In this document: positions 4,362 through 46,514 of the stretch, piece by piece | How the letters are laid out: each line of letters starts with the position of its first letter | Numbering within the stretch: the stretch's first letter is position 1 | Assembly: GCA_015486505.1 (NCBI GenBank) | Contig: WFRP01000068.1 | Location: forward strand, 1 to 46,514 | Source of the DNA: Pseudomonadota bacterium | GTDB taxonomy: Bacteria; Desulfobacterota; Anaeroferrophillalia; Anaeroferrophillales; Tharpellaceae | DNA length: 46,514 bases | Direction: 5' to 3' | Notes under the pieces: model-generated | The model's input: the letters and a program-made list of their open reading frames with translations, nothing else | Database searches by the model: none | Told to the model about the DNA's origin: nothing | Program-made: the position numbers and the translations under genes

Positions 4362-4612
4362 TTAGTACCTTACAGGTTATTTTCTGCACCAAAAAACAAG
4401 ATTTAATAATCAGAAAATGTTCTGATAAGAGTACTTATTTGCGGGCCGAGAAGACCCGATTGGGTTGCGGGATCTGTTCCCGCATTAGTACCTTACAGGT
4501 TATTTTCTGCACCAAAAAACAAGATTTAATAATCAGAAAATGTTCTGATAAGAGTACTTATTTGCGGGCCAGAAAGGCTCCGTTTGGGTTGCGGGGATTG
4601 TTCCCGCATTAG
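4362..4612 (+). repeat. Two tandem copies (period about 123 bp) of the A-B-C intergenic repeat unit
   Basis: The unit is TTAGTACCTTACAGGTTATTTTCTGCACCAAAAAACAAGATTTAATAATCAGAAAATGTTCTGATAAGAGTACTTATTTGCGGGCC...GGGTTGCGGGAnnTGTTCCCGCA, repeated head-to-tail. The second TTAG starts at 4485. Confidence 0.9.
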
Positions 4613-4639
4613 TCTTTTATTGCCAAGGAGATTTTTAAA

Positions 4640-9788: not shown

Positions 9789-11165
9789 ATGTGTGGAATA
9801 ATCGGCATTTACAATCATCCTGAGGCGAGCAACCTGGCCTACCTCGGACTCTACGCGATGCAGCATCGGGGTCAGGAAAGCGCCGGGATCATCTCAACCG
9901 ACGGGACTCAATTCTACTCCCATAAAGCGATGGGTCTGGTCTCGGATATTTTCCCTCTCGATGTAATTGCCCGGCTCCCCGGCAACACCGCCATCGGCCA
10001 TGTCCGCTATTCGACAACCGGCGCCAGCCTTTTAAATAACAGCCAGCCGTTTATGATCAACTACGCCCACGGCACTCTGGCGATCGCCCATAACGGCAAC
10101 CTCGTAAATGCTGAAGAAATAAAACATGATTTAGTCAGTAAGGGCGCGATATTTCAGTCGTCAATGGACACTGAAGTGATCATGCATCTAATTGCCGGGT
10201 TCCAGGAGCCGGATCTGGTCGAAAGTATTGCCGCGGCGCTAAGACGGATTAAAGGGGCTTATTCACTGGTTTTCATAAACGGCAAAAGCCTGATCGCCGC
10301 CCGGGACCCGCGTGGAGTCCGGCCCCTGGTTTTAGGAAAGATTAATGATACCTATGTGGTCTCTTCCGAATCCTGTGTCTTTGATCTGATTGAGGCCGAA
10401 TTTATCCGTGAGATCGAACCCGGTGAAATTCTGGTTATCAATGAAAAAGGACTCAAATCATACCACCCATTTCCGGAGCAAAAAGCGGCCAACTGTATTT
10501 TTGAACATATCTATTTCGCCCGCCCGGACAGCACTCTCTTTGGCGATACCGTCTACAATGTCAGAAAAAGACTGGGCCGCCTGCTCGCGCGGGAACATCC
10601 GGTGGCCGCCGACATGGTGGTTCCGGTACCGGATTCCGGCATCCCCGCCGCCCTGGGCTATGCGCAGGAACTTAACATCCCCTGGGAGCTGGCCCTGATC
10701 CGTAACCACTACGTCGGCCGGACTTTCATTGAACCAAGTCAGTCAATCCGCCATTTCGGGGTCAAGATAAAACTTAACGCCATCAAAAGCATGTTTGCCG
10801 GAAAACGGGTGGTGGTGGTTGACGATTCCATTGTCCGGGGCACGACTATGCGCAAGATTATCAAAATGATTCGGGCGGCCGGAGCCCTGGAAATTCATGT
10901 CCGCATCAGCTCACCGCCGACTGATTTCCCCTGCTACTACGGCATCGATACTCCGACCCGCAAAGAGTTGATCGCGTCAAGCCATTCCATTGACGACATT
11001 CGGCGTTATATTACCGCAGACTCGCTCAACTACATCAGCAGTGGAGATCTCGCCCAGGCAATAAACTGCAAACGCAGCTTTTGTGACGCCTGTTTCACCG
11101 GCAATTACCCGATCACATTCCCCGGCATTGAGGAATCAGGTTCCACCCAACCGCGGCTCTTCTGA
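9789..11165 (+). CDS. purF: Amidophosphoribosyltransferase
   Basis: MCGIIGIY N-terminal Cys nucleophile. PRPP-binding motif [13 protein letters not shown]. Full-length 458 aa. Confidence 0.95.
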
Positions 11166-11733: not shown

Positions 11734-11939
11734 ATGGCGTCGCAAAAAGCTCCATCTGCTGCGTTCCCCTGCAACCTTCGTCACTGCGGCGTACTGTGCG
11801 TACGCCTCATTCCTCAGGTTTTGGGCGCCTTGCGCCCGGAGGAAGTGCCCTTGGGGTGCATATGAAGCTTTTTACTTAGCCATCGAGTATTTTGACTTCT
11901 AAGTAACGGTTTGTAACTGTAGGAAATTATGTAGATTTT

Positions 11940-15511: not shown

Positions 15512-15728
15512 TTAGTACCCTACAGGTTATTTTCGGTTGGAAAAAACCAGAAAATGTTCTGATAAGAGCACTTATTTGCGCCCAACGGAAGTGCCCTTGG
15601 GGTGCGCCCAACGGAAGTGCCCTTGGGGTGCGCCCAACGGAAGTGCCCTTGGGGTGCGCCCAACGGAAGTGCCCCTGGGTACGGGCCGCAAGGCCCTGTT
15701 TGGGTTGCGGGAGTTGTTCCCGCATTAG
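15512..15728 (+). repeat. A-B-D(x4)-C copy of the mosaic intergenic repeat
   Basis: TTAGTACCCTACAGGTTATTTTC...AGAAAATGTTCTGATAAGAGCACTTATTTGCG, then four tandem 26-mers, then GGGTTGCGGGAGTTGTTCCCGCATTAG. Confidence 0.9.
15578..15680 (+). repeat. 26-bp tandem repeat x4 (GCGCCCAACGGAAGTGCCCTTGGGGT)
   Basis: Three exact units at 15578, 15604 and 15630, plus a variant fourth unit from 15656. Single copies of the same 26-mer occur inside the two full-length TIR elements. A degenerate copy lies at 11832-11859. Confidence 0.9.
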
Positions 15729-15991
15729 GTTGCTGCAATCTGCAACCGGAATTGAGTCAGGAGTGGAACTTGACGTAATTGAGTCGGAAACAGTAAACAT
15801 TCGGCTTTACTTCAAAACTGCTCAAATGTGGGGACAGACTTTCAGTTCTGTCCCCGTGCGAAACAGGGCGCAGCAAAGTTCGCTGGTTTTCTCTGTAACT
15901 TAAGTGCCGATCCGGTCAAGCCGAATATTTACCAAAAACAGAACTTGACCTGTTGTAATCAAAGAGCTTTCTCCAGGAATCAACTCAGGCG

Positions 15992-18582: not shown

Positions 18583-18698
18583 ATTACCGCCCAATTGGAC
18601 TTGAATGATACCAGTAACCGCTCAGCGTAATATTTTATTTACCACAGAGAGCACAGAGAGCAGAGAGAAAAAAATACTTTGTTCTCTGTGCTTTTAAT

Positions 18699-18892
18699 TT
18701 AGTACCTTACAGGTTATTTTCGGTTTGAAAAAACAAGAAGTAACTATTCGGCCGAATCCGGGGTCGGGTGCGGTTTTTCTCCGCTAGGCGTTAAGATTTC
18801 TGTTTTTCCTTTAAGCTCGCTGCGCCCGCCTTGCAAAACTCGCTTACGCTCAAACAGTTGCAATGCTAATGCGGGAACAGCTCCCGCATCAG
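18699..18892 (+). repeat. Rearranged mosaic repeat: module A joined to the 150-bp E arm of the TIR element
   Basis: TTAGTACCTTACAGGTTATTTTCGGTTTGAAAAAACAAGAA is joined at 18740 to GTAACTATTCGGCCGAATCCGGGGTCGGG...GCAATGCTAATGCGGGAACAGCTCCCGCATCAG. Confidence 0.85.
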
Positions 18893-18933: not shown

Positions 18934-19146
18934 ATGGCAGAGCAAGCAAAACGCTACACAATTGAAGAAGATCTGGTTTTAACCTATAAAGGCAAAGGCT
19001 GGGCCCTGATCGGCAATGGCGAAGAATTGCTCGGTTCCGACAAAATGCACGCCAACCTCAAGGTTCCTTACAAAGACGGCAAGACCATGCTGGAATTTAT
19101 TGAAGATGTCATCGCCAAAGACCTGGGAACCCCGGTCAGTAATTAA
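18934..19146 (+). CDS. Hypothetical 70-aa protein
   Basis: ORF only, with a weak RBS and no recognisable motif. It lies between two near-identical E-arm repeats. Confidence 0.35.
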   Translation: MAEQAKRYTIEEDLVLTYKGKGWALIGNGEELLGSDKMHANLKVPYKDGKTMLEFIEDVIAKDLGTPVSN

Positions 19147-19173
19147 ATTAATGACATAAAGTAATCTTCGAGT

Positions 19174-19585
19174 GTAACTATTCAGCCGAATCCGGGGTCG
19201 GGCGCGGTTTTTCTCCGCCAGGCGTTAGATTTCTGTTTTTCCTTTAAGCTCGCTGCGCCCGCCTTGCAAAACTCGCTTACGCTCAAACAGTTGCAATGCT
19301 AATGCGGGAACAGCTCCCGCAACCCAAACAGGGCTTTTCAGCCCGCACCCAGGGGCAATCCGATGGTCGCACCCCAAGGGCACTTCCGTTGGGCGCAAAT
19401 AAGTACTCTTATCAGAACATTTTCTGACTGTTAAATCTTGTTTTTTGGTATAGAAAATAACCTGTAAGGTACTGATGGACTCCCGCTCGCGGGGAAAACA
19501 ACGAAATCGTTTCCGCAACCGCTTACGAAAAACCACCCCCGCCCCCTCCAGAAGGTGGGGGGGGAAAATTTAGCTGAATAGTTAC
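19174..19585 (-). mobile_element. 412-bp non-autonomous TIR element (MITE-like), full-length copy 2, inverted relative to copy 1
   Basis: It is collinear with the reverse complement of 1882-2280 over its whole length. Ends are GTAACTATTCAGCC / AGCTGAATAGTTAC. The flanks CTTCGAGT / TTTCGGGT match 6/8 and could be a decayed target-site duplication. Confidence 0.7.
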
Positions 19586-19618
19586 TTTCGGGTTAAATCT
19601 GAAAACATTCACCGTATG

Positions 19619-27409: not shown

Positions 27410-28141
27410 ATGAAGCAACTAACTCGGCTGCCGTCTCTCTCACCTCTGATCCGTTCCCGCATTAGTACCTTACAGGTTATTTTCTGCACCCAAAAAAAAG
27501 ATTTAATAACCAGAAAATGTTCTGATAAAAGTACTTATTTGCGGGCCGAAAAAACCCGATTGGGTTGCGAAATAAGTTCCCGCATTAGCTTTATTCTCCT
27601 GTTTTTATGCTTCCTGGCCACCGCTGCCGCACCGTTCTCAGCGCATAGCGCCGAGCGGCCGGGATACCATATCGGTCCGGGTGATATTCTTGAGATTTCA
27701 GTCTGGAAAGAGGAATCCTTAAGCCGTGAAATAATCGTGCCCCCGGATCGGATAATCACTTTCCCGCTGATCGGCGATATCAACATTACGACCATGACAG
27801 TTACTGATCTGCGCCGGGAAATCAGTAAACGGGTGCAGGATTTTGTCCCGGACGCCACGGTTACGGTTATGCTGCGCCAGATAAACTCCCTGAAGGCCTA
27901 CGTTATCGGCAAAGTCAACAAGCCCGGCATCTTTCCGATTGATTTGGAGACCACGGTCATGCAGGTTCTGGCAATGGCCGGCGGCCTTAATCCCTTTGCC
28001 GCCGAGAGTAAAATCTATATTCTACGCCATGAAAACGGGGTAATGAAAAAAATCCCCTTCGACTATAACGAAGTCGAAAAAGGCAAGAACCTGGCCCAGA
28101 ATATCATCTTGAAACGTGGCGATGTTATTGTGGTACCCTGA
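27410..28141 (+). CDS. Polysaccharide export protein (Wza/SLBB-type, PEP-CTERM-locus subfamily-like)
   Basis: The mature part has the Poly_export/SLBB signature (YHIGPGDILEISVW...FPLIGDI...GKVNKPG). The signal peptide ISFILLFLCFLATAAAPFSAHSA is present. The start is uncertain. ATG 27410 reads through the repeat element, and an in-frame TTG at 27560 would give a normal-length signal peptide. Confidence 0.75.
   Translation: MKQLTRLPSLSPLIRSRISTLQVIFCTQKKDLITRKCSDKSTYLRAEKTRLGCEISSRISFILLFLCFLATAAAPFSAHSAERPGYHIGPGDILEISVWKEESLSREIIVPPDRIITFPLIGDINITTMTVTDLRREISKRVQDFVPDATVTVMLRQINSLKAYVIGKVNKPGIFPIDLETTVMQVLAMAGGLNPFAAESKIYILRHENGVMKKIPFDYNEVEKGKNLAQNIILKRGDVIVVP
27453..27588 (+). repeat. A-B-C copy of the mosaic intergenic repeat, with a degenerate C hairpin
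   Basis: GTTCCCGCATTAGTACCTTACAGGTTATTTTCTGCACCC...AGAAAATGTTCTGATAAAAGTACTTATTTGCGGGCC...GGGTTGCGAAATAAGTTCCCGCATTAG. Confidence 0.9.
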
Positions 28142-31003: not shown

Positions 31004-32164
31004 ATGTACGAAGATTTTTACAATTTTCAGGAAAAACCTTTCGAATTGATACCCAATCCGAATTTTCTCTATATGAGTTCGGGACATGATAATGCTTACA
31101 CCCATCTGGAATACGCGGTCCGTGAGAATAAAGGCTTTGTCGTGATCTCGGGAGAGGTCGGCTGCGGCAAAACCACCCTGATCAACTATCTTTTAAGTAA
31201 AGTCCCGACCGATTTGAAGATCGGTTTGATCAGCCATACGGATATCAACCCCGAGCTTTTCTTAAAACTCATCTGCCGCAAATTCGGCCTTCAATATAAT
31301 GGCCTTGACAAAACCGAAATGATAATCCTTTTTCAGGATTTCCTGCTGCGCTCCCGGCAGCAGCAGATCCGGGTCGCGCTGATTATCGATGAGGCCCAGA
31401 ACCTTCCGGATCAGACCTTGGAGGAAATCCGGATGCTCTCCAATCTGGAGACGGAAAAGGAGCATCTGATTCAGATCATTCTGGTCGGCCAACCGGAATT
31501 ACAGCAGAAACTCAGGCGCCCCCACCTGCGCCAGTTTCTGCAACGGGTGACCGTCCATTATCACCTGGAAGGCTTAAAAGACCAAAACGAACTCAAAGAA
31601 TATATCCAGCACCGACTCCGGGTTGCCGGCTGTCCCGCATATACTACACTGTTCAACGATCAGGCAATTTCAGCGGTCTGGGCCGGGAGCCAGGGAATCC
31701 CGCGTCTCATCAACTATATTTGCGATATGGCCCTGGTTCATGGCTATGCCGACGGTCTGACAACCATTACGGCAGAGGTTGTCAACGCCGTCATCGAAAC
31801 CCGGACGCAAAGCACTCTGTTCACCGCGGCCACACAGAATAAGGCCGAACCGGCCGAACTAACCGCACAGCCCTATCCCGCGAGCGAAGACACCCGGGCA
31901 GATATTGACAAATTAGGAGCCCGGCTCTCATTTCTTGAGAGCATAGTTGAGGCTCAATCCTGCCAACTCCAGGAATTATTTTCTGCCCGCTCAAGCCGGG
32001 ACCAGCTGACTCTGGAAATTTTTCGACTGCTGCAAAAAGATATTGAAAAAAGATGGGATTTAAATGCCCGCCACCTGAAGGCTCTGATTGCCCTGAAAGA
32101 GCTGAGACAGAAACTATCACTCAAAACTGAAAAACCGGGCCCTAAAATAAAAAAAGGCTCGTAA
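31004..32164 (+). CDS. ExeA-like AAA ATPase (PEP-CTERM-system-associated secretion ATPase type)
   Basis: MYEDFYNFQEKPFELIPNP N-terminus typical of ExeA-like proteins. Walker A GEVGCGKTT and Walker B LIIDEAQNL. GGAGA lies 7 nt before ATG 31004. Confidence 0.8.
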   Translation: MYEDFYNFQEKPFELIPNPNFLYMSSGHDNAYTHLEYAVRENKGFVVISGEVGCGKTTLINYLLSKVPTDLKIGLISHTDINPELFLKLICRKFGLQYNGLDKTEMIILFQDFLLRSRQQQIRVALIIDEAQNLPDQTLEEIRMLSNLETEKEHLIQIILVGQPELQQKLRRPHLRQFLQRVTVHYHLEGLKDQNELKEYIQHRLRVAGCPAYTTLFNDQAISAVWAGSQGIPRLINYICDMALVHGYADGLTTITAEVVNAVIETRTQSTLFTAATQNKAEPAELTAQPYPASEDTRADIDKLGARLSFLESIVEAQSCQLQELFSARSSRDQLTLEIFRLLQKDIEKRWDLNARHLKALIALKELRQKLSLKTEKPGPKIKKGS

Positions 32165-32211
32165 CTATTCAGCCAAATCCGGGGTCGGGTGCGACTTTTC
32201 TCCGCCAGGCG
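32161..32211 (+). repeat. Solo end fragment of the TIR element
   Basis: GTAACTATTCAGCCAAATCCGGGGTCGGGTGCGACTTTTCTCCGCCAGGCG matches the first 51 nt of the E arm. The TAA stop of the ATPase gene (32162-32164) lies inside the GTAAC of the repeat. Confidence 0.8.
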
Positions 32212-32294
32212 AAAAATTTCAGAACGACCAGGTCAAAATTACGATCTGCAGAAATTGTGGTCTCTCCGGCTGCGGGACATACATCGCCGCAACT

Positions 32295-37726: not shown

Positions 37727-38844
37727 TTGACCACCTTGACCGCCTGCTTTTCAGAGAGCCGCAAAAGCGCGCTTTCCTGAGCGACAATCAGCCGGTTTTC
37801 GGTACTCAACGGAGCCCTGACCACCAGCCAGTCGCCATCATTGGCAAGCACAGTCGCCGGAACAATCCGCACCCGGTTGGCGGCGGTCACCGTAAAGAGA
37901 TAACTCTGCCCGACATTTTCAAGCAGGGCCCGGGCCGGAATCCGCCAACCCTTAAAATTACCCATACGCAACGCGACCCGGACGGCGGCCCCGGTCGGCA
38001 GCGCAAAAGGCGGTTGGGGAATATCTATTTCAACACTGGCCAGAGTGCCCTGCCCCACGGCCGGATGGATGCGGCTGATGACAGCCGACAGCGGGGGTGC
38101 GGCATCGGTATCGGGTCCGGCGGAAAATTTATCCGGGATTATCGTCACCGGATCTCCGGGGTTAAGATTGACAAAATCCGCCTGCGGAATATTCACCAGA
38201 ATATAGTAACCGGCATCAATCTCTTCGATGCCGAGCAGGGTTTTTCCGGGGACGGCCAGATCGCCGGGATCGATGAGACGCTCAGTAATAACCCCGGCCG
38301 CCGGCGCTTTTATAACCGTATAGGAGAGATCAACCAGGGCGATATTCAAGGATTTCCCGAGCGCGGTCACCCGGGCCCGGGCATTGTCATAAGCGGCCCG
38401 GGATTTATCGAAGGCTTCCTGGCTGATGGCCCGGGCCTTGAACAGTTTCTGATCCCGGGAGAAGATCGCCTTCTGCGTGGTCAGCTGAGTTTTCGCGGCC
38501 GCAAGATCAGCCCGAATTGCGGCAACCCGATCCTGTTCCGGGCGGTCATCAAGCTGCAGCAGAATATCTCCTTTACCAACCCGGGTTCCGGGGCGGCCGG
38601 AGACCGTCAGGATATGACTGGTAATCCGGGCCGCCAGCAAAATTCGCCGTTTGGCGACCACTTCGCCGAGAAAGGTTTTGCTGACCGGGAAATCGCCTTT
38701 TACCGCGGTCACGGTTTTAACCGCCGGCAGCCTGAGTGTCGGCGGAGGGATTTTGCTGATTGCCGCTTTTTTATGTTTAATCAGGCGAATGCCGGCAACC
38801 ACCAAAAGGAGAATAATAACGACGGGAATTAACTTTTTAATCAT
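37723..38844 (-). CDS. RND periplasmic adaptor (membrane fusion protein, HlyD family)
   Basis: N-terminal anchor MIKKLIPVVIILLLVVAG, then a lipoyl / coiled-coil / beta-barrel layout. ATG 38844 overlaps the TolC stop by 8 nt. ATGA overlap with the RND gene. Confidence 0.85.
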   Translation of the reverse strand: MIKKLIPVVIILLLVVAGIRLIKHKKAAISKIPPPTLRLPAVKTVTAVKGDFPVSKTFLGEVVAKRRILLAARITSHILTVSGRPGTRVGKGDILLQLDDRPEQDRVAAIRADLAAAKTQLTTQKAIFSRDQKLFKARAISQEAFDKSRAAYDNARARVTALGKSLNIALVDLSYTVIKAPAAGVITERLIDPGDLAVPGKTLLGIEEIDAGYYILVNIPQADFVNLNPGDPVTIIPDKFSAGPDTDAAPPLSAVISRIHPAVGQGTLASVEIDIPQPPFALPTGAAVRVALRMGNFKGWRIPARALLENVGQSYLFTVTAANRVRIVPATVLANDGDWLVVRAPLSTENRLIVAQESALLRLSEKQAVKVVK

Positions 38845-40168
38845 AATCGGGGCCTTCTTCAATTGTGCCGCTCGCCAGTCGATAATCAACCAGGGCTTTT
38901 TCCAGTTCATAAACGGCTTCAGCTTTTAAGGCTGTCGCCTCAAACCAGGCCGCCTGCGCCAGTAGACTGTCGGTTATGGTCCCGGCTCCGGTTTTATATT
39001 TAAGTTCTTCAATACGATAGGTTTCCCGGGCGCTGATAATGGTTTTTTCGGCCATCCCGATGCGTTTTCCGGCCTCATCAATCCGGGAGCGGGCCTGCAC
39101 GATCTCATTCATTGCCGACAATTTCTGCTGCTCGAAACGGGCCTGAGCCGCGGCGAACCGGGCTTCGGCCTGACTGACCTTAGCTTTTATCCGGCCCCCG
39201 GCATAGAGATTAAATTTAAGATTAATACCCGCGCTCCAGACTTCTTCGTTGTCATTTAAACCGCTGCCGGCCCGTTGACCATAATCTCCGACCAGAGCGA
39301 TTTCCGGCAGATGGTAGCCCCGCTGCTTTTTGATCTCCACAACCGCAAGTTTTACCTCTTCCTGAGCTTTCCTGATATCGGGACGCTTCAGGACGATATT
39401 TTCAAGAGCCGTTTTGTCCGGCACCGGCAGGTTCGGGATTTTTGTCGTCAGCCGACCGGTCGGTTCCCGAAGTTGGGCCGGGTTCTCACCCAGCAGCAAT
39501 GCCAGTCCCTGCCGGGCCCGAAGCGCGGCCTGACGGGTATGGATAAGATCCTGCTCCTGACGGGCCACCTGGGTCTCCATCTTCATTAATTCAACCGGCG
39601 CCACCCGGCCCAGTTCAAGTCGCTTTTTCGTATCGGCCTGAGCTTTTTTAAGCGCGTCAAGCGCTTTCAGCTGGGCTTTTGCCAGAGTCTTGAAAGAGAG
39701 CACCTGCTTGAAGGTATTGGTAACGTTGGCAATAGTTTCCTGGCGCGAGAAATCAAGCTGCTCTTCGGCAATCAGACGGCTCAGATCCGAAGCCGTAACC
39801 TCATACCAGCGCCGACCGCCTTCGTAGAGCGGCAGATTCAGTCGTAAACCACTCTGATAATGATTCCGGGTAAATGCCGGCGGCTCTCCACCGAACTCCG
39901 TCATCGGAATCACCAGCATCGGATTTGCGGTTCTCAAGTAACCGCCATAAGCATCGAGCCGGGGCAGAAGCTCACCGCGACTGACCTTTTGCCCGGCTTT
40001 AGCCCCCTTAACCTCCTGGTCGCGGGCTTTAAGAGATTGGTTTTTCCGCAGCGCAATCCCGATAGCCGAATCAAGCGTCAGCTGATTTTTTTCAAAACAA
40101 AATCCGGGCCCGGAGAACACAACCAACAGTATCACCCAAACCGGAATTGACAAACGTAATCTTGGCAT
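38837..40168 (-). CDS. TolC-family outer membrane efflux protein
   Basis: 443 aa with a signal peptide and the two-repeat OEP architecture. First gene of the tolC-mfp-rnd operon. Confidence 0.85.
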   Translation of the reverse strand: MPRLRLSIPVWVILLVVFSGPGFCFEKNQLTLDSAIGIALRKNQSLKARDQEVKGAKAGQKVSRGELLPRLDAYGGYLRTANPMLVIPMTEFGGEPPAFTRNHYQSGLRLNLPLYEGGRRWYEVTASDLSRLIAEEQLDFSRQETIANVTNTFKQVLSFKTLAKAQLKALDALKKAQADTKKRLELGRVAPVELMKMETQVARQEQDLIHTRQAALRARQGLALLLGENPAQLREPTGRLTTKIPNLPVPDKTALENIVLKRPDIRKAQEEVKLAVVEIKKQRGYHLPEIALVGDYGQRAGSGLNDNEEVWSAGINLKFNLYAGGRIKAKVSQAEARFAAAQARFEQQKLSAMNEIVQARSRIDEAGKRIGMAEKTIISARETYRIEELKYKTGAGTITDSLLAQAAWFEATALKAEAVYELEKALVDYRLASGTIEEGPDYD

Positions 40169-40416
40169 TTTCCCCTCACAAAACTTGCGGATCTATAATT
40201 GTCATTTGGCTTAATATGCAAACATCCAGAAAATGTCAAGGAGTATTTTTTGTAAAACCAGAAAAAGACGGCCACGATTAACAATAAATAAGGCGCATCA
40301 TAAAGGCGCTGAAATATTTTTTTCAGGGATTTAATTTTTCTCGAAAAAAGGCAACCGAGTCTGCCCCAATCGCCCCACTGTTTCACGCCGCCGCTAATAA
40401 TAATACCAATTACTAT

Positions 40417-40445
40417 TTGACATCTCATCACCCTTAAACTATTGT
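40417..40445 (+). promoter_or_regulatory. Candidate sigma70 promoter (TTGACA - 17 nt - TATTGT)
   Basis: Consensus -35 hexamer at 40417-40422 and a -10-like hexamer at 40440-45, about 200 nt upstream of the 40646 gene. Sequence match only. Confidence 0.25.
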
Positions 40446-40645
40446 GATTAATGTGCAGATTATACCCGCCGTTAAATGATATTGAGTATTGGTCATAAGT
40501 ACCATAACAACCACTGATTATCAACTTATCAGGTCAAAAAGATCTGTTAATATAAATGTTCGGCGGTGAAATGTAAAAAAGAGTGTTGATTAATGTAGTT
40601 GAAAGTTAATTTAAGTATCTTTAATCTTAAAGGAGGGTGTTTGAA

Positions 40646-41614
40646 ATGAAAAAAATTACTATTTGTTTGTTTTTAATATTTGCAGTGAGTACGGCAAGTG
40701 CTTTTGATTTAAGTAAAAGTTTCAAAAAGGTTAGCGATACCCTAGGAAAATCAACGCACAAAAAGCATGAACAAACAGAACCAAGCATAGACTCTTCACA
40801 CACAAAAAAAGAGCCAACACCGACACCGACACAACAAAAAAAGAAAAAAACCACCATGAAAGAAAGTAAAATAGGGGTAAATATTGAAAAAGCATGTTTA
40901 GGGGGAGTTTGCTTGGGTGACTCTATTGTCGATTTACAAAAGATTACTTGGATTGCTAGCCATAAAATGGAATTGAAGAATAGGGACAAGCTCAAACTGC
41001 CCTCTACCGGAATAGGAATATTTGAATCTTGCAAAGTGTATATGAATGAATATGGCTATTCAAAGTCAGAAGAAGAATTTATAAAAAAATATATTTTAGG
41101 ACTTACAGAAGAAGAAAGGATATTGTTAACTCCTTACTACAAAGCTCATTTTTTCGACAACAAGGTGTTAGGTATTTTAAATAAAGTTATTGCGTGTAAA
41201 GGAAAAAAAATGTGTGGATTTGTGCAAACAAAGTCTGGGAATCTTGATAAAATTTCCGTTATGCCATCACCTACAACTGGTAAATATGAAGTTGTAAGTA
41301 TAGAGCGTCAATTTACAAAAATGGATAAAACTGAAAAAGGTAAAATATTTAAAGCTCTACAGTCGAAATACCCATCAATAATGTCAAGAACTGACGCTCG
41401 TAGAGTAGCTTACGGTAAAAAAGAATGGGATGAGTCTATGGCAATTATATCATGGGATCAATCCTATGGCCGATTAATTTTATCAAAAGTATTAAAATAT
41501 GGCAATGGTCAAATAAATCAAGCAGTTGACTTGCATGGTGACTTCAACGATAAAGCTCTTTTGAAAATTCCTTGTTGTGACGAAGCGCTCACTCCAACAT
41601 TGGACATAGATTGA
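40646..41614 (+). CDS. Secreted hypothetical protein with a Lys/Thr/Pro-rich linker
   Basis: AGGAGGG RBS lies 8 nt before ATG 40646. Signal peptide MKKITICLFLIFAVSTASA. Low-complexity KKEPTPTPTQQKKKKTT. No family recognised. Confidence 0.6.
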   Translation: MKKITICLFLIFAVSTASAFDLSKSFKKVSDTLGKSTHKKHEQTEPSIDSSHTKKEPTPTPTQQKKKKTTMKESKIGVNIEKACLGGVCLGDSIVDLQKITWIASHKMELKNRDKLKLPSTGIGIFESCKVYMNEYGYSKSEEEFIKKYILGLTEEERILLTPYYKAHFFDNKVLGILNKVIACKGKKMCGFVQTKSGNLDKISVMPSPTTGKYEVVSIERQFTKMDKTEKGKIFKALQSKYPSIMSRTDARRVAYGKKEWDESMAIISWDQSYGRLILSKVLKYGNGQINQAVDLHGDFNDKALLKIPCCDEALTPTLDID

Positions 41615-41865
41615 GTTACTAAGTGTTGAATTATGGTTTATTTAACGAAATACCGCTTATTTTACCATGAAATATTTCAGCGGTGAAACTCCAAGAAAAT
41701 TAAAATAAACCGCAGTATAAAAGACAACAATTCGGACGCCCTTATGCCTTAAAAAACCCCGGGGTTTGGGGCGGAGCCCCAATAAATCATAGATAAGTTT
41801 TAGATTGTAGAACAACGTTAAATATTGTCCATATAATCAGATAACTTTCCGCAATTTAAAGAGAG

Positions 41866-41949
41866 ATCCAACAGGGTAAACTTGACCGGGAATAGCCGCC
41901 CGTTTTTTGTTCGAGCATTGCTGTCCGCAAGTTACCCTTGGCGTTATGT
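41866..41949 (+). repeat. attC-like structured repeat, copy 1
   Basis: ATCCAAC-a-GGGTAAACTTG...CAAGTTACCC-ttggc-GTTATGT. The outer boxes approximate RYYYAAC / GTTRRRY. The inner stem has one extrahelical A. About 85% identical to copy 2. Confidence 0.5.
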
Positions 41950-41995
41950 GAAGTGGCTCTAAACACTCCAAAAACATCAAGAAAAGGAGTTTGTC

Positions 41996-42181
41996 ATGCA
42001 AAAAGCAAAAAAAATTATTTATGAAAGAATTACAAAACAAAAATCAAAATTTGCTAATGTTGTTTTGCAAAATGTTACAGTTCAACAGATTGGAGGGAAC
42101 ACCGAAGCAGCCGTAGCTAAATATCTGCAGAAAAAATTTCCAGGTGATCAAATAACTGTTAAGCAAATTGATTGGGCATAA
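41996..42181 (+). CDS. Hypothetical 61-aa basic protein
   Basis: AAGGAG RBS lies 6 nt before the ATG. No recognisable motif. Confidence 0.55.
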   Translation: MQKAKKIIYERITKQKSKFANVVLQNVTVQQIGGNTEAAVAKYLQKKFPGDQITVKQIDWA

Positions 42182-42273
42182 GTCTGATAAACACCATCAA
42201 AACGTACTTGCCCTTTCAAAATCAGTACACTGAGAGTCAGCAAGAAAACTGAAATCAAAGAGGTCTGTTAAAG

Positions 42274-42816
42274 ATGCCCAGCATTAAAAAAGTTAAAGAA
42301 GCTTTCGGGTTACTCTACGAAAGCATAAGAGAGCCAAGTTTTTCGAAATCCCATGAGTTTAGTTGGTGGAATGAAAAGTCACTTTTACCTAATGTGCGTT
42401 TCTTTCTCTTAGGCTATTTTGGTGACGACCTTGAACCCGAGCTAAAAACAGAGTTAATCTCGGCACCATCAGGAGAAGGATATTTAGACTTTGCTGTAGG
42501 TGATACTGCCATAGAGTTTGCAGTTCGCTTACCGAATGAAACAGCCTCAAAACTTACAAGCTATTCAAACAGAACGGAAAGAACAAAATTAATTCGGCGC
42601 AAAGTTAAAAATGATTGGGCGACACACGGTGTGTTGGTATTGTTTGATTTTTCAGATTCTCCTCTAACTAACGAACAACTTGAAGACTACAGAGAAAAAC
42701 CAAGTCTTGGAAAAGGAAACCATCATATTAATGAATTTTCTGTTCTGTACTATAATTACACATTATCAGACAGCCTGTACTGCATAAGAAAAAACGTAAA
42801 TTTAGCTAACACTTGA
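42274..42816 (+). CDS. Hypothetical 180-aa protein, possibly a PD-(D/E)xK-like core
   Basis: ORF with an AAGAGG upstream. The segment GYLDFAVGDTAIEFAVRL loosely resembles a D...E-x-K nuclease core, but the Lys position is not canonical. Weak assignment. Confidence 0.5.
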   Translation: MPSIKKVKEAFGLLYESIREPSFSKSHEFSWWNEKSLLPNVRFFLLGYFGDDLEPELKTELISAPSGEGYLDFAVGDTAIEFAVRLPNETASKLTSYSNRTERTKLIRRKVKNDWATHGVLVLFDFSDSPLTNEQLEDYREKPSLGKGNHHINEFSVLYYNYTLSDSLYCIRKNVNLANT

Positions 42817-42875
42817 CCGAAGGTTAAAATCGGGGGCAGACCACGGTTTTTTAATAACTCAATTGGCAAGAAATC

Positions 42876-42963
42876 GCCGAACAATCGGGTAAACTTGATC
42901 AGGAATAACCTCCTGTTTTTTATTTGAGCATTGCGGCCCGGCAAGTTACCCTTGGCGTTCGGT
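42876..42963 (+). repeat. attC-like structured repeat, copy 2
   Basis: GCCGAAC-aatc-GGGTAAACTTG...CAAGTTACCC-ttggc-GTTCGGT. The outer boxes are 6/7 complementary plus a G-U pair. The internal hairpin CAGG...CCTG covaries with CGGG...CCCG in copy 1. Confidence 0.55.
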
Positions 42964-43249
42964 TTCAAGATATAAAATATGAAAGTAGATTCAAGGCGAA
43001 ACATCTCAGCGGCCCAGGTAGTCCCCGTAAAATAGATATAAGGAATTTAAATGACAAAATATGACGACAACCAATGTCTACAAATAATGAAAATATATAG
43101 ATACAATTGAAGAGCATATCCCTCAAAAATCAGCAGAACCTTTAGCTTGAAAAAGATGGCAAGTGCAATGGTAAACTGCAAGAAATACTAGACAATCTAT
43201 AACACTCAGTCAAACACAACTAACACCATTCTCTTGCAGCAAAATCTCC

Positions 43250-43277
43250 TTGACAAATATGCACAGATCACTATATT
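43250..43277 (+). promoter_or_regulatory. Candidate vapBC promoter with an overlapping operator palindrome
   Basis: TTGACA (43250-55) - 16 nt - TATATT (43272-77). The inverted repeat ATATGCA ... TGCATAT straddles the -10. GAGGAG RBS lies before ATG 43308. Confidence 0.45.
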
Positions 43278-43307
43278 TATGCATATACTTAAAATGAGGA
43301 GATTAGA

Positions 43308-43514
43308 ATGAGAACCACATTAGACCTTCCAGAAAATTTAGTTTTAGAGGCAATGAAAAGCACCAACATAAAAACAAAGACAAAAGTAATTATCACAGCC
43401 CTCGAACAACTTATAAAGAAATCAAAAATTTCAGAGATAAAAAATTATAAAGGCAAAGTAGATCTAAACATCGACTTAGATGAAATTAGAGGTCGAAATG
43501 TCAATTATAATTGA
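43308..43514 (+). CDS. vapB: Type II antitoxin, VapB family
   Basis: 68 aa. The MRTTLDLPENLVLEAMK...TKTKVIITALEQLI N-terminus is typical of VapB antitoxins. It overlaps the PIN gene by 17 nt. Confidence 0.8.
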   Translation: MRTTLDLPENLVLEAMKSTNIKTKTKVIITALEQLIKKSKISEIKNYKGKVDLNIDLDEIRGRNVNYN

Positions 43515-43875
43515 TTCATCAGTTTGGATTGAATATTTTAGAAACGGCAACAACTATGAAAAGGTCGATTTCTTGATTGAAGAAAATTTAGTTGTTACAA
43601 ACGACCTGATACTTACAGAATTAACACCTTTCTTAAAGCTAAAAAGACAACATAAACTCATTAAATTGTTGAGCAATATTAATAACGCCACTATGCAAAT
43701 AGTATGGGAACAACTAATTGACCTACAATATAAATGCATTAAAAATGGACTTAATGGAGTCAGTATCCCAGATTTAATTATTGCCCAAAATGCCATTCAA
43801 CATAATTGCAAAATATATTCGCTAGATAAACATTTCACTAAAATGTCCACAGTGCTTAATTTGGATATTTTTTAA
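43498..43875 (+). CDS. vapC: Type II toxin, PIN-domain ribonuclease VapC
   Basis: Acidic PIN residues in the expected order (IIDSSVW, LTEL, IPDLIIAQ, SLDKHF). The start is taken as ATG 43498 (MSIIID). Confidence 0.85.
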   Translation: MSIIIDSSVWIEYFRNGNNYEKVDFLIEENLVVTNDLILTELTPFLKLKRQHKLIKLLSNINNATMQIVWEQLIDLQYKCIKNGLNGVSIPDLIIAQNAIQHNCKIYSLDKHFTKMSTVLNLDIF

Positions 43876-43911
43876 AATCTAGCCCAAAACACTATAATTG
43901 CCTGAAATAAC

Positions 43912-44050
43912 CTAATGCGGGAACAATTCCCACAACCCAAACAGGGCTTTGTGGCCCGCACCCAGGGGCACTTCCGATGGTCGCAAATAAGTACTCTTAT
44001 CAGAACATTTTCTTGTTTTTTCAAACCGAAAATAACCTGTAAGGTACTAA
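43912..44050 (-). repeat. A-B-C copy of the mosaic repeat, reverse orientation
   Basis: The reverse complement reads TTAGTACCTTACAGGTTATTTTCGGTTTGAAAAAACAAGAAAATGTTCTGATAAGAGTACTTATTTGCG...GGGTTGTGGGAATTGTTCCCGCATTAG. Confidence 0.9.
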
Positions 44051-44126
44051 AAATTGGTTGTTTTACTGATTCAAGACCACTTTATTTATCAGCGCCGTAT
44101 AAAAACAATTAATTCAGGAGAAAATA

Positions 44127-45284
44127 ATGGAGAAGTTGCAACCTCCAGAGCCCAGGAAGCTCTTAAAACTACAGCAATTGTGCGAATATTCAGACCCATA
44201 TGTGCATAATGATGAACTTGATGAATTGTTTACAGGCGCGTATAAAGAGATAATAATCTGGCATAGAGAGCACAATATCTTCTTCAATAATTTACTCGCA
44301 AAAGAAGGCTTTGAAATTGCGGATCTCAGAACGATTGATGATTTACATAACTTCCCTTTTATCCATGCGAATTTCTTTAAAATACATGAAACATTATCAG
44401 TAAAAAGAGATACCATAAGTGAACATTTGACATCGTCTGGAACCACCGGTCAGAAGTCACAAATGTTTTTTGATAAATGGTCGATTCTGAGCGCCAGAAG
44501 AATGGTGCAGTTTGAATATGAAAAAAACGGGTTTTACACTCCCGATAGAGAAGTGAATTTTCTTTTGTTTGCTTATGAGCCTTTAGAGAACTTCAAGGTC
44601 GGGACAAGCAACACAAATATTTTTCTTACATCTTTTGCTCGGCAGAAAGAGCTGTTTTTTGCCCTGAGAGCAATCGGCGGGGGCCATGAATTTGATAAAT
44701 TCGGAACCGTTAACAAGCTGCAGGAATATGAAAAGGATGGGTTGCCGGTAAGAATCCACGGGTTTCCATCCTTCATGTATTTTACATTGAAACTGATGCG
44801 GGAGAGAGGGATCGCCTTAAAACTTAACCCTGAATCGTTGGTTATGTTTGGCGGTGGCTGGAAGGGCTATGCCGACCAACAAATCCCCAAAGATGAATTG
44901 TATCGACTGATCAACCAAACACTGGGGATACCGCTTGCGAGAATCCGTGACAGCTTTGGCGCGGTTGAACACTCAATCCCATATGTGGAATGCTCACACC
45001 ACCATCTGCATATTCCGGTATGGTCGCGGCTGTTTATCCGTGATGTAAAAACTTTCGCAGTACTTGGATATGACCAACCCGGTTTCCTGCAATTTGTTAC
45101 ACCCTACATTACTTCGGTGCCGGCCATAAGTGTCATGATGGGCGATTTGGGAATATTGCATCGCGCAGGCTGTGAATGCGGCGCTCAAACACCATATTTT
45201 GAAATACTTGGGCGTGCGGGAGCGTCTAAAAATAGAAGCTGTGCAATATCTGCGGCTGAACTTTTAAAGAAAAGAGCGGTGTAG
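44127..45284 (+). CDS. LuxE-family acyl-protein synthetase (adenylate-forming)
   Basis: 385 aa with an AMP-forming motif TSSGTTGQKS and the LuxE-family layout. A Cys lies near the C-terminus (NRSCAISAAELLKKRAV), as at the LuxE acylation site. Confidence 0.75.
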   Translation: MEKLQPPEPRKLLKLQQLCEYSDPYVHNDELDELFTGAYKEIIIWHREHNIFFNNLLAKEGFEIADLRTIDDLHNFPFIHANFFKIHETLSVKRDTISEHLTSSGTTGQKSQMFFDKWSILSARRMVQFEYEKNGFYTPDREVNFLLFAYEPLENFKVGTSNTNIFLTSFARQKELFFALRAIGGGHEFDKFGTVNKLQEYEKDGLPVRIHGFPSFMYFTLKLMRERGIALKLNPESLVMFGGGWKGYADQQIPKDELYRLINQTLGIPLARIRDSFGAVEHSIPYVECSHHHLHIPVWSRLFIRDVKTFAVLGYDQPGFLQFVTPYITSVPAISVMMGDLGILHRAGCECGAQTPYFEILGRAGASKNRSCAISAAELLKKRAV

Positions 45285-45287
45285 AGC

Positions 45288-46514
45288 ATGACTAAAAACC
45301 ATTTATGGCAGGGAACCCGCATTGCAGACGAAGAGGCCGAACAACGGCTTGATGATATTGAGCGGTTTACGCTGCCGCATATTGGCAGCAAATTCCCGCT
45401 GGAATATCTGCTTGAAAAGATGCAGACATTTCACGAAAAATTGCTGGAGAAGGGAGCGGCTTATGAGCTGTTTGTCAGCAAAGCAATGCAAATACACTCA
45501 GCTGACAGAGGGAAAGCTGAGGCTGTTCTTGATTCAATAATTTCCTTTATTTCCAAAGATAATCTGGAGAAGAAATTATACAGTGAACTCGGGACGATTA
45601 CACCTTTCAGTGCCGAACGCCCATTAATGAAAGAAACCCATTTTGAAAGCTGGGAAGCTCTGGGAACTTTAGTTCATATCGCGCCCACAAATGTTTTTGC
45701 GGTGCCGGTAATGTGTGTTATCGAGGGGCTTTTAAGCGGAAATATTAATATTCTTAAAACTTCATCTACTCAAGTTCAGCTGCCGCAGCTGTTTTTCGAA
45801 ACTTTTCTCTCATTTGATGATGAAAACCGGCTGCGCCCCTACATTATAATTCTTGAGTTTTCGTCGGGAAATGAAACCCTGCTGCAGAAAGTCATTAATG
45901 CAGCCGATGCCGTATCCGCCTGGGGCGGAGAGAATGCGATTGCAAGCCTAAGACAAATGACACCTCAAGGTGTACGGTTTATTGAGTGGGGGCACAAGAT
46001 ATCATTTGCTTATTTCGCCAAAGGTTCTGAACAGGATTCCGATGCAATCGAACAGGTATGCCGGGATGTATGTCTTTTTGATCAAAACGCCTGTTCCAGT
46101 CCTCAGGATGTCTTTTTGGACACGGAAGACTTTGCTGAACTCAAACGATTTGCTGAAAGATTTGCGGCGGTTTTAGATAAAGTCGCGCAGGAGATGCCTG
46201 GAGAAATACCTTCAGATCCGGCCCAGGCTGAAATCAGCACAATGGTTGCAATTGCCCGGACCGAAGAAGCCCTCAACTTAACCAAAGTTTTCTCGGCTGA
46301 AGATTTCTCCTGGTCGGTTATCGCGGATAAGCGCAGTGGGCTTTCAATCTCGCCGTTATTCAGAAATGTAATCATAAAACCACTGCCGGAAAAAGATATA
46401 ATAGCAACCCTGCATCCAATGAAACGCTACCTGCAGACCGTTGCATTGGTGGCAAAGCCCACTGCGGTTATCCCCCTCGCGCGAAAATTCTTTGCCGCCG
46501 GCTGCCTCCGTATC
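45288..46514 (+). CDS. LuxC-family acyl-CoA (acyl-protein) reductase, 3'-truncated by the window edge
   Basis: ATG lies 3 nt after the luxE-like stop. The frame is open for 409 codons to the window end and is not in the track because no stop is present. ALDH-like active-site stretch FDQNACSSPQ and LuxC-like HIAPTNVF. Confidence 0.75.
   Translation, partial: MTKNHLWQGTRIADEEAEQRLDDIERFTLPHIGSKFPLEYLLEKMQTFHEKLLEKGAAYELFVSKAMQIHSADRGKAEAVLDSIISFISKDNLEKKLYSELGTITPFSAERPLMKETHFESWEALGTLVHIAPTNVFAVPVMCVIEGLLSGNINILKTSSTQVQLPQLFFETFLSFDDENRLRPYIIILEFSSGNETLLQKVINAADAVSAWGGENAIASLRQMTPQGVRFIEWGHKISFAYFAKGSEQDSDAIEQVCRDVCLFDQNACSSPQDVFLDTEDFAELKRFAERFAAVLDKVAQEMPGEIPSDPAQAEISTMVAIARTEEALNLTKVFSAEDFSWSVIADKRSGLSISPLFRNVIIKPLPEKDIIATLHPMKRYLQTVALVAKPTAVIPLARKFFAAGCLRI

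What the first reader, a model, noticed from the sequence alone, without database searches (positions are those of the whole stretch)
41866..42963. Two structured 85-bp direct repeats with attC-like architecture delimit a 1,014-bp two-gene cassette
The two copies (41866-41949 and 42876-42963) share GGGTAAACTTG...CAAGTTACCCTTGGCGTT. In copy 2 the outer boxes GCCGAAC / GTTCGGT approximate the integron R''/R' consensus RYYYAAC / GTTRRRY and pair with each other. Unpaired spacers of 4 and 5 nt lie inside them, and the inner stem has one extrahelical A. An internal hairpin changes from CGGG...CCCG in copy 1 to CAGG...CCTG in copy 2, a compensatory G:C to A:T change. The TTGC...GCAA stem keeps its arms while its loop differs. 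This argues for selection on structure rather than sequence. The orientation matches the + strand ORFs, as in a cassette array. TA modules such as the neighbouring vapBC are common integron cassettes. This could be a CALIN (attC cluster lacking an integrase) or part of a chromosomal integron whose intI lies outside the window.
Basis: partly seen in the sequence, partly recalled or inferred. Interest (0 to 1): 0.65.

Follow-up and report, generated by a model that had tools for sequence, protein, structure and literature searches.

The report
Integron attC sites without an integrase
The two 85-bp repeats are genuine integron cassette recombination sites (attC), one intact and one decayed, in a small foreign gene island with no integrase nearby; this is a known and common kind of element (a CALIN), so it is correctly spotted but ordinary.

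Summary
These are the only two copies in the window. They lie in a low-GC island (about 40170-43885).

The attC reading holds. Copy 2 has the full canonical anatomy: R'' GCCGAAC, a 4-nt spacer, an L stem with two extrahelical A's 6 bp apart, a variable middle, a 5-nt spacer and R' GTTCGGT.

A covariance model trained only on 12 class-1 integron attC sites from plasmids put its two best hits in the whole window exactly on the two copies (23.7 bits, E 0.002; 17.0 bits, E 0.09; next best 10.9 bits).

The same L-box family occurs in 20 contigs from at least four phyla, mostly in same-strand arrays mixed with classical attC types. In those arrays each site's R'' is complementary to the preceding site's R' (78/92 variable positions, against 46/92 for its own R'). 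That is the signature of integrase crossover at G|TT.

No intI or intI pseudogene lies in the window, so this is a two-site CALIN.

Caveats:
- Copy 1 is degraded: it has a 3-nt spacer deletion and a poor R box.
- The window pair itself fails the junction signature.
- vapBC has lost its own attC.

Verdict: new member of a known kind.

The parts
42876..42963 (+). attC site 2, intact. R'' GCCGAAC 42876-82; spacer AATC 42883-86; L'' GGGT[A]AACTTG 42887-97; second extrahelical A 42898; variable terminal structure 42899-42941; L' CAAGTTACCC 42942-51; spacer TTGGC 42952-56; R' GTTCGGT 42957-63. Predicted crossover between G42957 and T42958.
   Evidence: Sequence. Class-1-trained model R2: 23.7 bits, E 0.0023, all 16 modelled pairs standard. 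Family model R1: 91.4 bits. The bottom-strand minimum-energy fold gives this architecture.
41866..41949 (+). attC site 1, degenerate. R'' ATCCAAC 41866-72, followed by only 1-2 nt of spacer (a 3-nt deletion relative to the models). L'' 41874-84. L' 41928-37. Spacer TTGGC 41938-42. R' GTTATGT 41943-49. There is a 1-nt deletion in the extended stem. R''/R' pair only 5/7.
   Evidence: R2: 17.0 bits, E 0.09, with two non-standard R pairs and a 3-column deletion. R1: 71.3 bits. Alignment A2.
41944..42957 (+). 1014-nt interval between the two crossover points. It holds the 61-aa ORF (41996-42181) and the 180-aa ORF (42274-42816).
   Evidence: ORFs. The 180-aa protein has 198 homologues of about 175 aa in many phyla and no Pfam match. 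Homologues in L038-L042 are each followed directly by an attC-like hit. The 61-aa ORF has no homologue beside them.
42826..42875 (+). About 50 nt immediately upstream of attC 2 that is conserved with the sequence upstream of an attC in L008, although the upstream genes differ.
   Evidence: blastn 77.7% over 121 nt, window 42826-42946 against L008 232-352.
40637..41614 (+). 325-aa ORF with a signal-peptide-like N-terminus and no family match. It lies upstream of attC 1 in the same orientation and is a presumed cassette gene.
40558..40564 (+). GTTCGGC, the exact complement of the R'' of attC 2. Candidate 5' boundary (G|TTCGGC) of a 2.4-kb composite cassette spanning 40559-42957.
   Evidence: One of only three GTTCGGY on the + strand of the window. 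The cassette rule predicts this sequence at the start of the unit. Chance in this 470-nt spacer is about 0.03, so this is suggestive only.
43308..43875 (+). vapB (43308-43514) and vapC (43480-43875) toxin-antitoxin pair with its own promoter at 43250-43277. It sits directly downstream of attC 2 and has no attC of its own.
   Evidence: Pfam VapB_antitoxin 8.7e-11 and PIN 3.5e-13. Promoter matches 11/12. The homologous vapBC in L009 (68% nt identity) is followed by a same-family attC.
40170..43885 (.). Low-GC island (33-37% against about 52%) holding all of the above. It lies between a TolC-like gene (38837-40168, -) and a copy of a host repeat.
   Evidence: Composition profile and Pfam.
43886..44051 (+). 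Copy of an unrelated, abundant host repeat family. It marks the right edge of the island, upstream of luxE-like 44127-45284.
   Evidence: 90-100% matches to 15512-15731, 18698-18739 and 19299-19473.

Best explanation
The two repeats are integron attC sites, the recombination sites carried at the 3' end of integron gene cassettes. They form a two-site cluster lacking an integrase (CALIN), inside a horizontally acquired low-GC island in the chromosome of a Desulfobulbales-like bacterium.

How such a site works (established integron biology, not tested here):
- When the bottom strand is single-stranded it folds into an imperfect hairpin.
- R''/R' and L''/L' form the two integrase-binding boxes, separated by an unpaired spacer.
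- The extrahelical bases on the L'' side mark the bottom strand for an IntI tyrosine recombinase.
- IntI cuts between A and C of AAC (G|TT on the top strand).
- attC x attC recombination excises a circular cassette. attC x attI recombination, or recombination with a genomic GWT site, inserts it.

What is shown:
- The anatomy and its identity of register with bona fide attC sites.
- Array context and the crossover signature in relatives.
- The cassette nature of the 180-aa ORF and of vapBC.

What is inferred:
- The island is a decaying remnant of a cassette array, or of a multi-cassette insertion at a secondary site.
- attC 2 is probably still recombination-competent if an IntI is supplied in trans.
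- attC 1 is probably crippled, because of the spacer deletion and the poor R box.
- The vapBC cassette has lost its site. vapBC has its own promoter and may help retain the island.
For: 1. Anatomy. Copy 2 reads R''(7)-4-L''(4 bp, extrahelical A, 6 bp, extrahelical A, stem)...L'-5-R'(7). That is 23 nt on the 5' side and 22 nt on the 3' side, the same as the aadA2, dfrA5, VIM-2, cmlA1 and estX attC sites taken from plasmids next to intI1.

2. Independent model. R2 was built only from those 12 class-1 sites. Its top two hits in the window, both strands, filters off, are the two copies, full length and on the + strand: 23.7 bits (E 0.0023) and 17.0 bits (E 0.09). The next hit scores 10.9 bits. No hit with E<1 appeared in 22 kb of non-integron control loci (L036, L037). 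The only hit in 20 kb of Aeromonas chromosome sits right after a homologue of the 180-aa ORF.

3. Family. Database scans with GGGTAAACTTG..CAAGTTACCC found 20 further sites, all flanked by YYYAAC-4 nt and 5-6 nt-GTTRRRY. They come from Methylomonas, other Gammaproteobacteria, Thermodesulfobacteriota and Brocadiaceae. 88% of pair cells are paired, against 27-48% with slid partners. The covariation score is 0.169 against 0.083 in shuffles, with 0/500 shuffles reaching it. L008 site A has a fully compensated L box, ACATTCACTTG/CAAGTGATGT.

4. Arrays. R1 and R2 find 2-4 same-strand sites per locus, mixing this family with classical types.

5. Crossover signature. In 23 consecutive site pairs outside the window, the complement of R'' matches the R' of the preceding site at 78/92 variable positions, against 46/92 for its own R'. 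With the window pair included the figures are 79/96 and 49/96, and the random expectation for those 24 pairs is 44 +/- 4.5.

6. Cassette content. vapBC in L009 carries this attC type. Homologues of the 180-aa ORF are followed by unrelated attC-like sites in four contexts.

7. No integrase. No Phage_integrase domain among ORFs of 120 aa or more, and no tblastn hit to IntI1 in the window.

8. Foreign composition of the island.
Against: - No IntI has been linked to this attC family in any locus I could read. The one adjacent recombinase (L019) scores below the TIGR02249 cutoff, lacks about 34 aa where IntI4 has its specific insertion, and sits next to an IS91-type transposase.
- The window pair fails the junction signature: the complement of R'' of attC 2, GTTCGGC, matches the R' of attC 1, GTTATGT, at only 1/4 variable positions.
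- attC 1 is degenerate and reaches only E 0.09 with the independent model.
- vapBC has no attC.
- R2 is a small surrogate with roughly calibrated E-values, not the IntegronFinder model.
- Single-sequence fold energies are not exceptional.
- The host genome is not available, so an intI elsewhere cannot be checked.
Confidence: 0.88

Rival explanations
1. The repeats belong to a host REP/MITE-type intergenic repeat family and have nothing to do with gene cassettes.
For: The window does contain a very abundant composite intergenic repeat family, and one copy abuts the island at 43886-44051. One module of it (18740, 19174, 32161 and 2227-2284 on the - strand) even has attC-like ends.
Against: The attC pair is not part of that family. 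It has only two copies in 46.5 kb, against at least nine for the host family. Its relatives are in other phyla rather than dispersed in this genome. Those relatives sit in ordered same-strand arrays at the 3' ends of ORFs with the G|TT junction signature. The REP module scores only 10.9 bits with R2 and lacks an L box with extrahelical bases.
Confidence: 0.03
2. The element is a transcribed structured RNA, either an intrinsic terminator or a 3'-UTR element of the upstream genes. In this reading the repeat reflects selection on RNA function.
For: Copy 2 contains a weak terminator-like hairpin plus T-run at 42900-42915. Both window copies carry a TTTTTT run after a 4-bp stem. The RNA fold of the - strand of copy 2 has z = -3.0.
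Against: There is no Rfam family at gathering score. The T-run and the local hairpin are confined to one of the three subfamilies. The conserved and covarying parts are the R and L boxes and the long stem, not the local hairpin. The RYYYAAC/GTTRRRY boxes and the junction signature have no explanation in an RNA model.
Confidence: 0.04
3. The sites are attC-like in shape but are substrates of a different recombinase rather than a canonical IntI. The candidate would be a short Xer-like tyrosine recombinase such as the one beside the L019 array.
For: A 300-aa tyrosine recombinase is encoded divergently next to the L019 array, and a degenerate family site lies between them at 10907-10987. Its best solved-structure match is IntI4, E 1.9e-27. 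Several family arrays abut housekeeping genes with no intI in view.
Against: That recombinase is followed by an IS91-type zinc-binding transposase N-terminus, a known IS91-family arrangement (from my own knowledge). So it is more simply part of an inserted IS. The family shares arrays and junction signatures with classical attC types that IntI proteins are known to use. Only one locus shows this recombinase.
Confidence: 0.05

Closest known systems
attC sites (59-base elements) of mobile class 1 integron cassettes, such as aadA2, dfrA5, estX, cmlA1 and blaVIM-2
   Same: They share the R''/R' consensus, the spacer lengths and the order 3-4 bp, extrahelical base, 6 bp, extrahelical base on the top-strand 5' arm. 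They share a length within 57-141 nt and a position at the 3' end of an ORF in the same orientation. The sites are recognised by a model trained only on these class-1 sites. estX has the same 4 bp / 6 bp layout.
   Different: The L-box sequence is different. The first extrahelical base is A (T on the bottom strand), rather than C or G on the top strand. The cassettes are not resistance genes. No integrase is nearby.
[quoted passage not shown] 2016, PMC4889954)
   Same: Two attC sites lie 927 nt apart on one strand, with no intI or intI pseudogene nearby, and with non-resistance cassettes of unknown function. This is exactly the published definition and typical content.
   Different: This is the minimum size, two sites. 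One site is degenerate and one cassette (vapBC) has no site, so the element looks more eroded than a typical CALIN.
Sedentary chromosomal integron arrays with toxin-antitoxin cassettes, such as the Vibrio cholerae superintegron and its VCR sites
   Same: attC sites within the cluster are homogeneous. The cluster includes a TA cassette with its own promoter and cassettes of unknown function.
   Different: There is no intI or attI, and only two sites rather than tens to hundreds. The same L-box family is spread over several phyla rather than being specific to one lineage.
Cassettes inserted at genomic secondary sites (attC x attG; SALIN; Loot et al. preprint 10.1101/2022.09.11.507474)
   Same: Cassettes lie outside any integron platform, next to housekeeping genes. 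A possible G|TTCGGC left junction at 40558 matches the R'' of attC 2, as that mechanism predicts.
   Different: The left junction is only a 7-mer match (chance about 0.03). The right flank (vapBC) also looks cassette-derived, which fits a decayed array at least as well.

Membership tests
integron attC site | Outer boxes R'' RYYYAAC and R' GTTRRRY, mutually complementary | tested here: met
   Copy 2: GCCGAAC / GTTCGGT, 7/7 pairs with one G.T. Copy 1 meets this only partly: ATCCAAC fits RYYYAAC, GTTATGT misses one R, and pairing is 5/7. In 22 family members AAC/GTT is nearly invariant.
integron attC site | Unpaired central spacers of about 4-6 nt between the R and L boxes on both sides | tested here: met
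   Copy 2 has AATC and TTGGC, the same total register as class-1 sites (23 nt on the 5' side, 22 nt on the 3' side). Copy 1 does not meet this: its 5' spacer is reduced to 1-2 nt.
integron attC site | L''/L' stem with extrahelical bases on the L'' arm (the bottom-strand 3' arm) that mark the recombinogenic strand | tested here: met
   GGGT[A]AACTTG[A]... pairs with ...CAAGTT-ACCC. The two extra bases are 6 bp apart and on the same arm, with the same spacing as in aadA2, dfrA5, VIM-2, cmlA1 and estX.
integron attC site | Variable terminal structure, with overall length about 57-141 nt | tested here: met
   The sites are 84 and 88 nt. Three unrelated middle sequences occur within one L-box family.
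integron attC site | Recognised by an attC covariance model | tested here: met
   Surrogate model R2 (12 class-1 sites): E 0.0023 and 0.09, ranks 1 and 2 in the window. The IntegronFinder model itself could not be run.
integron attC site | Sits at the 3' end of ORFs in the same orientation, in arrays | tested here: met
   In the window, both sites follow + strand ORFs. In the loci there are 2-4 same-strand sites per contig.
integron attC site | Cassette junction rule: R'' of a site is complementary to the R' of the preceding site, because crossover is at G|TT | tested here: not met
   The window pair matches at 1/4 variable positions. The rule is met in related arrays that contain family sites: 78/92 against 46/92 for a site's own R'. 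So the family obeys the rule, but the present attC 1 / attC 2 junction is not a pristine integrase product.
integron attC site | Bound and recombined by an integron integrase as a folded bottom strand | not testable with these tools
   This needs a binding or recombination assay.
CALIN (Cury et al. 2016) | [quoted passage not shown] | tested here: met
   The sites are 927 nt apart, both on the + strand. Definition from PMC4889954.
CALIN (Cury et al. 2016) | No integron integrase within 4 kb | tested here: met
   There is no PF00589 among ORFs of 120 aa or more and no tblastn hit to IntI1 in the window. On the right only 3.55 kb is visible. It is filled by luxE and an open luxC, which is about 835 aa in relatives, so the last 0.45 kb is inferred.
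complete integron | intI with the IntI-specific domain, plus attI, adjacent to the array | tested here: not met
   None in the window. The rest of the genome is not available.
host REP/MITE repeat | Many dispersed copies in the same genome, in both orientations, in intergenic regions | tested here: not met
   There are two copies only, both on the + strand. The genuine host family has at least nine copies.

The most novel reading that the evidence does not exclude
The GGGTAAACTTG/CAAGTTACCC L-box family is invariant across Methylococcales, other Gammaproteobacteria, Thermodesulfobacteriota and Brocadiaceae. In several genomes it sits in integrase-less clusters next to housekeeping genes. It could mark a cross-phylum cassette pool served by one particular integrase lineage that has not been identified. 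Alternatively it could reflect cassette spread mainly by insertion at genomic secondary sites. Either case would run against the reported taxon-specificity of chromosomal attC sites.
Probability: 0.2. Interest if true: 0.5.

Novelty: new member of a known kind. Interest (0 to 1): 0.3.

Why it matters
The finding adds one small, eroded CALIN, with cassettes of unknown function and a vapBC module, to the thousands already catalogued. It shows that a sequence-only reader can recognise attC architecture correctly.

The modest extra value lies in the family analysis. One L-box type is shared across at least four phyla while the middle and the R boxes vary. The R''-to-preceding-R' complementarity test gives a simple, integrase-free way to show that an array was assembled by G|TT crossover.

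The 180-aa protein family is widespread, has no known function, and is repeatedly followed by attC-like sites. It is a clean example of an uncharacterised cassette gene.

Tried and rejected
- L019 recombinase as the integron integrase. Rejected: it scores below the TIGR02249 cutoff, lacks about 34 aa at the IntI-specific insertion relative to PDB entry 2a3v, and is followed by an IS91-type transposase N-terminus.
- A third attC downstream of vapC (43876-44126). The ACCGAAA there belongs to a host repeat that is 100% identical over 42 nt to 18698-18739, and neither model hits it.
- R2 hit at 19172-19230 as a further attC. It is a module of the host repeat family with two small inner hairpins and no L box.
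- Extending the window. The exact LuxE protein is found only on a 2.5-kb contig. The luxE loci of relatives are not syntenic upstream, so no empty-site comparison was possible.
- Viral contigs scan for the family: no hits.
- Literature search for the L-box motifs: only unrelated primer hits.
- Defence-system (PADLOC), Pfam and NCBIfam scans of the 325-, 61- and 180-aa ORFs: nothing.
- Rfam at gathering score: nothing in the window.
- The 13-sequence class-1 alignment misaligned arr-3 and dfrA12. I dropped dfrA12 and rebuilt it as A4.
Full report
**Observation**

The repeat finder reports 41869-41927 and 42882-42940 (59 nt, 81% identical) followed by 41927-41945 and 42941-42959 (19/19), 1013-1014 nt apart. 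The 19-mer occurs twice in the window against 0.01 expected.

Copy 2 reads GCCGAAC-AATC-GGGTAAACTTG-A-...-CAAGTTACCC-TTGGC-GTTCGGT. The pair lies in a 3.7-kb island of 33-37% GC in a window that is otherwise about 52% GC. The island sits between a TolC-like gene and a luxE/luxC-like pair. It carries + strand ORFs of 325, 61 and 180 aa with no family match, and a vapBC module.

No ORF of 120 aa or more in the window has an integrase domain. A tblastn search with IntI1 finds nothing in the window. Rfam finds nothing at gathering score.

**Relatives**

I scanned the species-representative genomes and the metagenome contigs with GGGTAAACTTG-N30-60-CAAGTTACCC. This gave 22 loci.

Two Photorhabdus hits are 57-nt matches with no flanking boxes, and I set them aside. 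The other 20 loci all have YYYAAC plus 4 nt before the motif and 5-6 nt plus GTTRRRY after it. They come from Methylomonas, other Gammaproteobacteria, a Pseudomonadota MAG, Thermodesulfobacteriota and Brocadiaceae, plus unassigned metagenome contigs.

The middle of the element falls into three unrelated sequence types, while the L boxes are invariant. One neighbour, L008 site A, keeps the window-type middle but has a fully compensated L box: ACATTCACTTG / CAAGTGATGT, with the extra base retained.

On a 22-sequence alignment I tested the attC-type structure: an R stem, an L stem with two bulged A's, and a 5-bp extension.
- 88% of cells are paired, against 27-48% when partners are slid.
- The covariation score is 0.169, against 0.083 in shuffles (0/500 shuffles reach it).
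- Columns 25-68 are CG:13 / AU:8, and columns 27-66 are UA:10 / GC:3 / CG:1.

The local 'compensatory' change and the TTGC/GCAA hairpin are not supported.

**Comparison with real attC sites**

I recalled the IntI1 protein sequence from memory. It matched intI1 at 100% in thousands of plasmids. I read the cassette arrays beside intI1 in twelve plasmids and extracted the attC sites after aadB, aadA2, a HAD/psp gene, aac(6')-Ib, arr-3, dfrA5, dfrA27, dfrA12, blaVIM-2, aac(6')-29a, estX, cmlA1 and orfF.

These sites share one register. The 5' side is R''(7), spacer(5), 3 bp, an extrahelical base, 6 bp, an extrahelical base. The 3' side is 6 bp, 3 bp, spacer(6), R'(7). The window family has 7+4+4+1+6+1 and 6+4+5+7, which gives the same totals of 23 and 22 nt, with the extra bases on the same arm. 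estX has exactly the 4 bp / 6 bp layout.

I built a covariance model (R2) from 12 of these sites only, encoding just the R and L pairs, and ran it over the whole window on both strands with filters off.
- The two best hits are 42876-42963 + (23.7 bits, E 0.0023, all 16 pairs standard) and 41866-41949 + (17.0 bits, E 0.09).
- Both hits are full length.
- The next hit scores 10.9 bits.

The model is small and its E-values are rough. However, 22 kb of unrelated luxE loci gave no hit with E<1. In 20 kb of Aeromonas chromosome the single hit lies immediately after a homologue of the window's 180-aa ORF.

**Arrays and the crossover signature**

The family model R1 and the class-1 model R2 together find 2-4 sites per locus, always on one strand and at cassette-like spacing. 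Family sites are mixed with sites of classical sequence, for example L007 1265-1324 at 46.6 bits with R2.

Integrase crossover at G|TT leaves TTRRRY at the 5' end of each cassette. The R'' of a site should therefore be complementary to the R' of the preceding site, not to its own. I tested this on 24 consecutive pairs from 15 arrays.
- The preceding R' matches at 79/96 variable positions, and 12 pairs are perfect.
- A site's own R' matches at 49/96.
- Random pairing gives 44 +/- 4.5. None of 5000 permutations reached 79.

Family sites take part on both sides of such junctions (L006, L007, L008, L013, L018, L021, L023). This is strong indirect evidence that an IntI-type recombinase assembled these arrays, even though I could not place an intI next to any of them.

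**Cassette genes**

The window's vapBC has a 68%-identical homologue in the Brocadiaceae contig L009, where it is followed by a same-family attC.

The 180-aa ORF belongs to a family of about 175-aa proteins of unknown function. The family has 198 hits across many phyla, including Aeromonas, Geobacter, Salmonella and Sphingomonas. In the four contexts I read, each homologue is followed directly by an attC-like site of unrelated sequence.

The 61-aa ORF is not conserved beside any of them. Nucleotide similarity to L041 starts only about 85 nt upstream of the 180-aa ORF.

**State of the window element**

attC 2 looks intact. attC 1 has a 3-nt deletion in the 5' spacer, a 1-nt deletion in the stem extension, and an R box pairing only 5/7.

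The window pair fails the junction rule. The complement of attC 2's R'' is GTTCGGC, but attC 1 ends in GTTATGT, a 1/4 match. An exact GTTCGGC lies at 40558-40564, upstream of the 325-aa ORF. It is one of only three GTTCGGY on the + strand of the window. This suggests that the unit matched to attC 2 is 40559-42957, with attC 1 as a decayed internal site. The chance of this match is about 0.03, so I treat it as a lead only.

vapBC has its own strong promoter (11/12) but no attC. The sequence after it is a copy of an abundant, unrelated host repeat.

The published routes to a CALIN are loss of intI, rearrangement, or insertion of cassettes at secondary GWT sites. All of them remain possible. The erosion fits an old remnant.

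**Integrase**

The one recombinase beside a family array is L019 11164-12063. I do not count it as an IntI, for three reasons.
- It scores 169 bits on TIGR02249, below the cutoff of 265.
- Its alignment to IntI4 (PDB 2a3v) breaks into two pieces, with about 34 residues missing where IntI proteins carry their specific insertion.
- It is followed by an IS91-type zinc-binding transposase N-terminus.

On the right of the window only 3.55 kb is visible. It is occupied by luxE and by a luxC that is still open at the window end and is about 835 aa in relatives. So an intI within 4 kb is very unlikely.

**Verdict**

The repeats are attC sites forming a minimal, partly eroded CALIN. The 'two-gene cassette' is probably a fusion, or contains a spurious ORF.

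This is a new member of a well-known kind of element. The only mildly unusual aspect is that one L-box type is shared across several phyla.

Noticed in passing
window 1882-2290, 4340-4632, 11831-11881, 15512-15748, 18677-18890, 19170-19600, 27440-27608, 32151-32220, 43886-44051: An abundant composite intergenic repeat family occurs in both orientations. It is built from modules such as CTAATGCGGGAACA..CCCGCAACCCAAACAGGGC, GCAAATAAGTACTCTTATCAGAACATTTTCT and AAAATAACCTGTAAGGTACTAA. It is unrelated to the attC pair. One copy forms the right edge of the low-GC island.
   Followed up: partly
window 15577-15705: Tandem 26-nt unit TGCGCCCAACGGAAGTGCCCTTGGGG, repeated about 4-5 times inside one copy of the host repeat.
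   Followed up: no
window 18740-18888 and 19174-19321 (also 32161-32220 and 2227-2284 on the - strand): A repeat module begins GTAACTATTC and ends CAGGCGTTAGAT, so its ends look like attC. Two copies 434 nt apart, each with a 95-nt identical extension, flank a 70-aa ORF (18936-19148). The class-1 attC model gives only 10.9 bits. The inside is two small hairpins with no L box.
   Followed up: partly
L019 1-12296 (= L008 reversed and extended): The array with family attC sites carries defence-type cassettes: a SIR2-domain protein plus a 964-aa protein with weak Dsr1 similarity, and a TIR-domain protein plus an AAA/NACHT-like ATPase. It is bordered by an IS91-like element encoding a short Xer/IntI-like recombinase. 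The transposase N-terminus has an in-frame stop.
   Followed up: partly
window 42826-42875 and L008 232-285: About 50 nt upstream of R'' is conserved between cassettes that encode unrelated proteins. The shared module is therefore longer than the attC proper.
   Followed up: no
window 41927-41945 and 42941-42959: The 3' 19 nt of the two copies are identical, while the 5' 59 nt differ at 19% of positions. This uneven divergence could reflect constraint on L' and the spacer, or gene conversion.
   Followed up: no
window 42274-42816: The 180-aa ORF belongs to a widespread family of about 175-aa proteins with no Pfam, NCBIfam or PADLOC match. One source names a member 'restriction endonuclease'. 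In other genomes each homologue examined is directly followed by an attC-like site.
   Followed up: partly
window 43228-43300: A near-consensus promoter (TTGACA-16-TATATT) lies upstream of vapB and overlaps an ATATGCA...TGCATAT inverted repeat. This may be the VapB operator.
   Followed up: no
window 44127-46514: A LuxE-like acyl-protein synthetase and a LuxC-like acyl-CoA reductase form a gene pair that runs off the window end. The closest named homologue is in Desulfogranum mediterraneum (67%), which suggests a Desulfobulbales-like host.
   Followed up: partly
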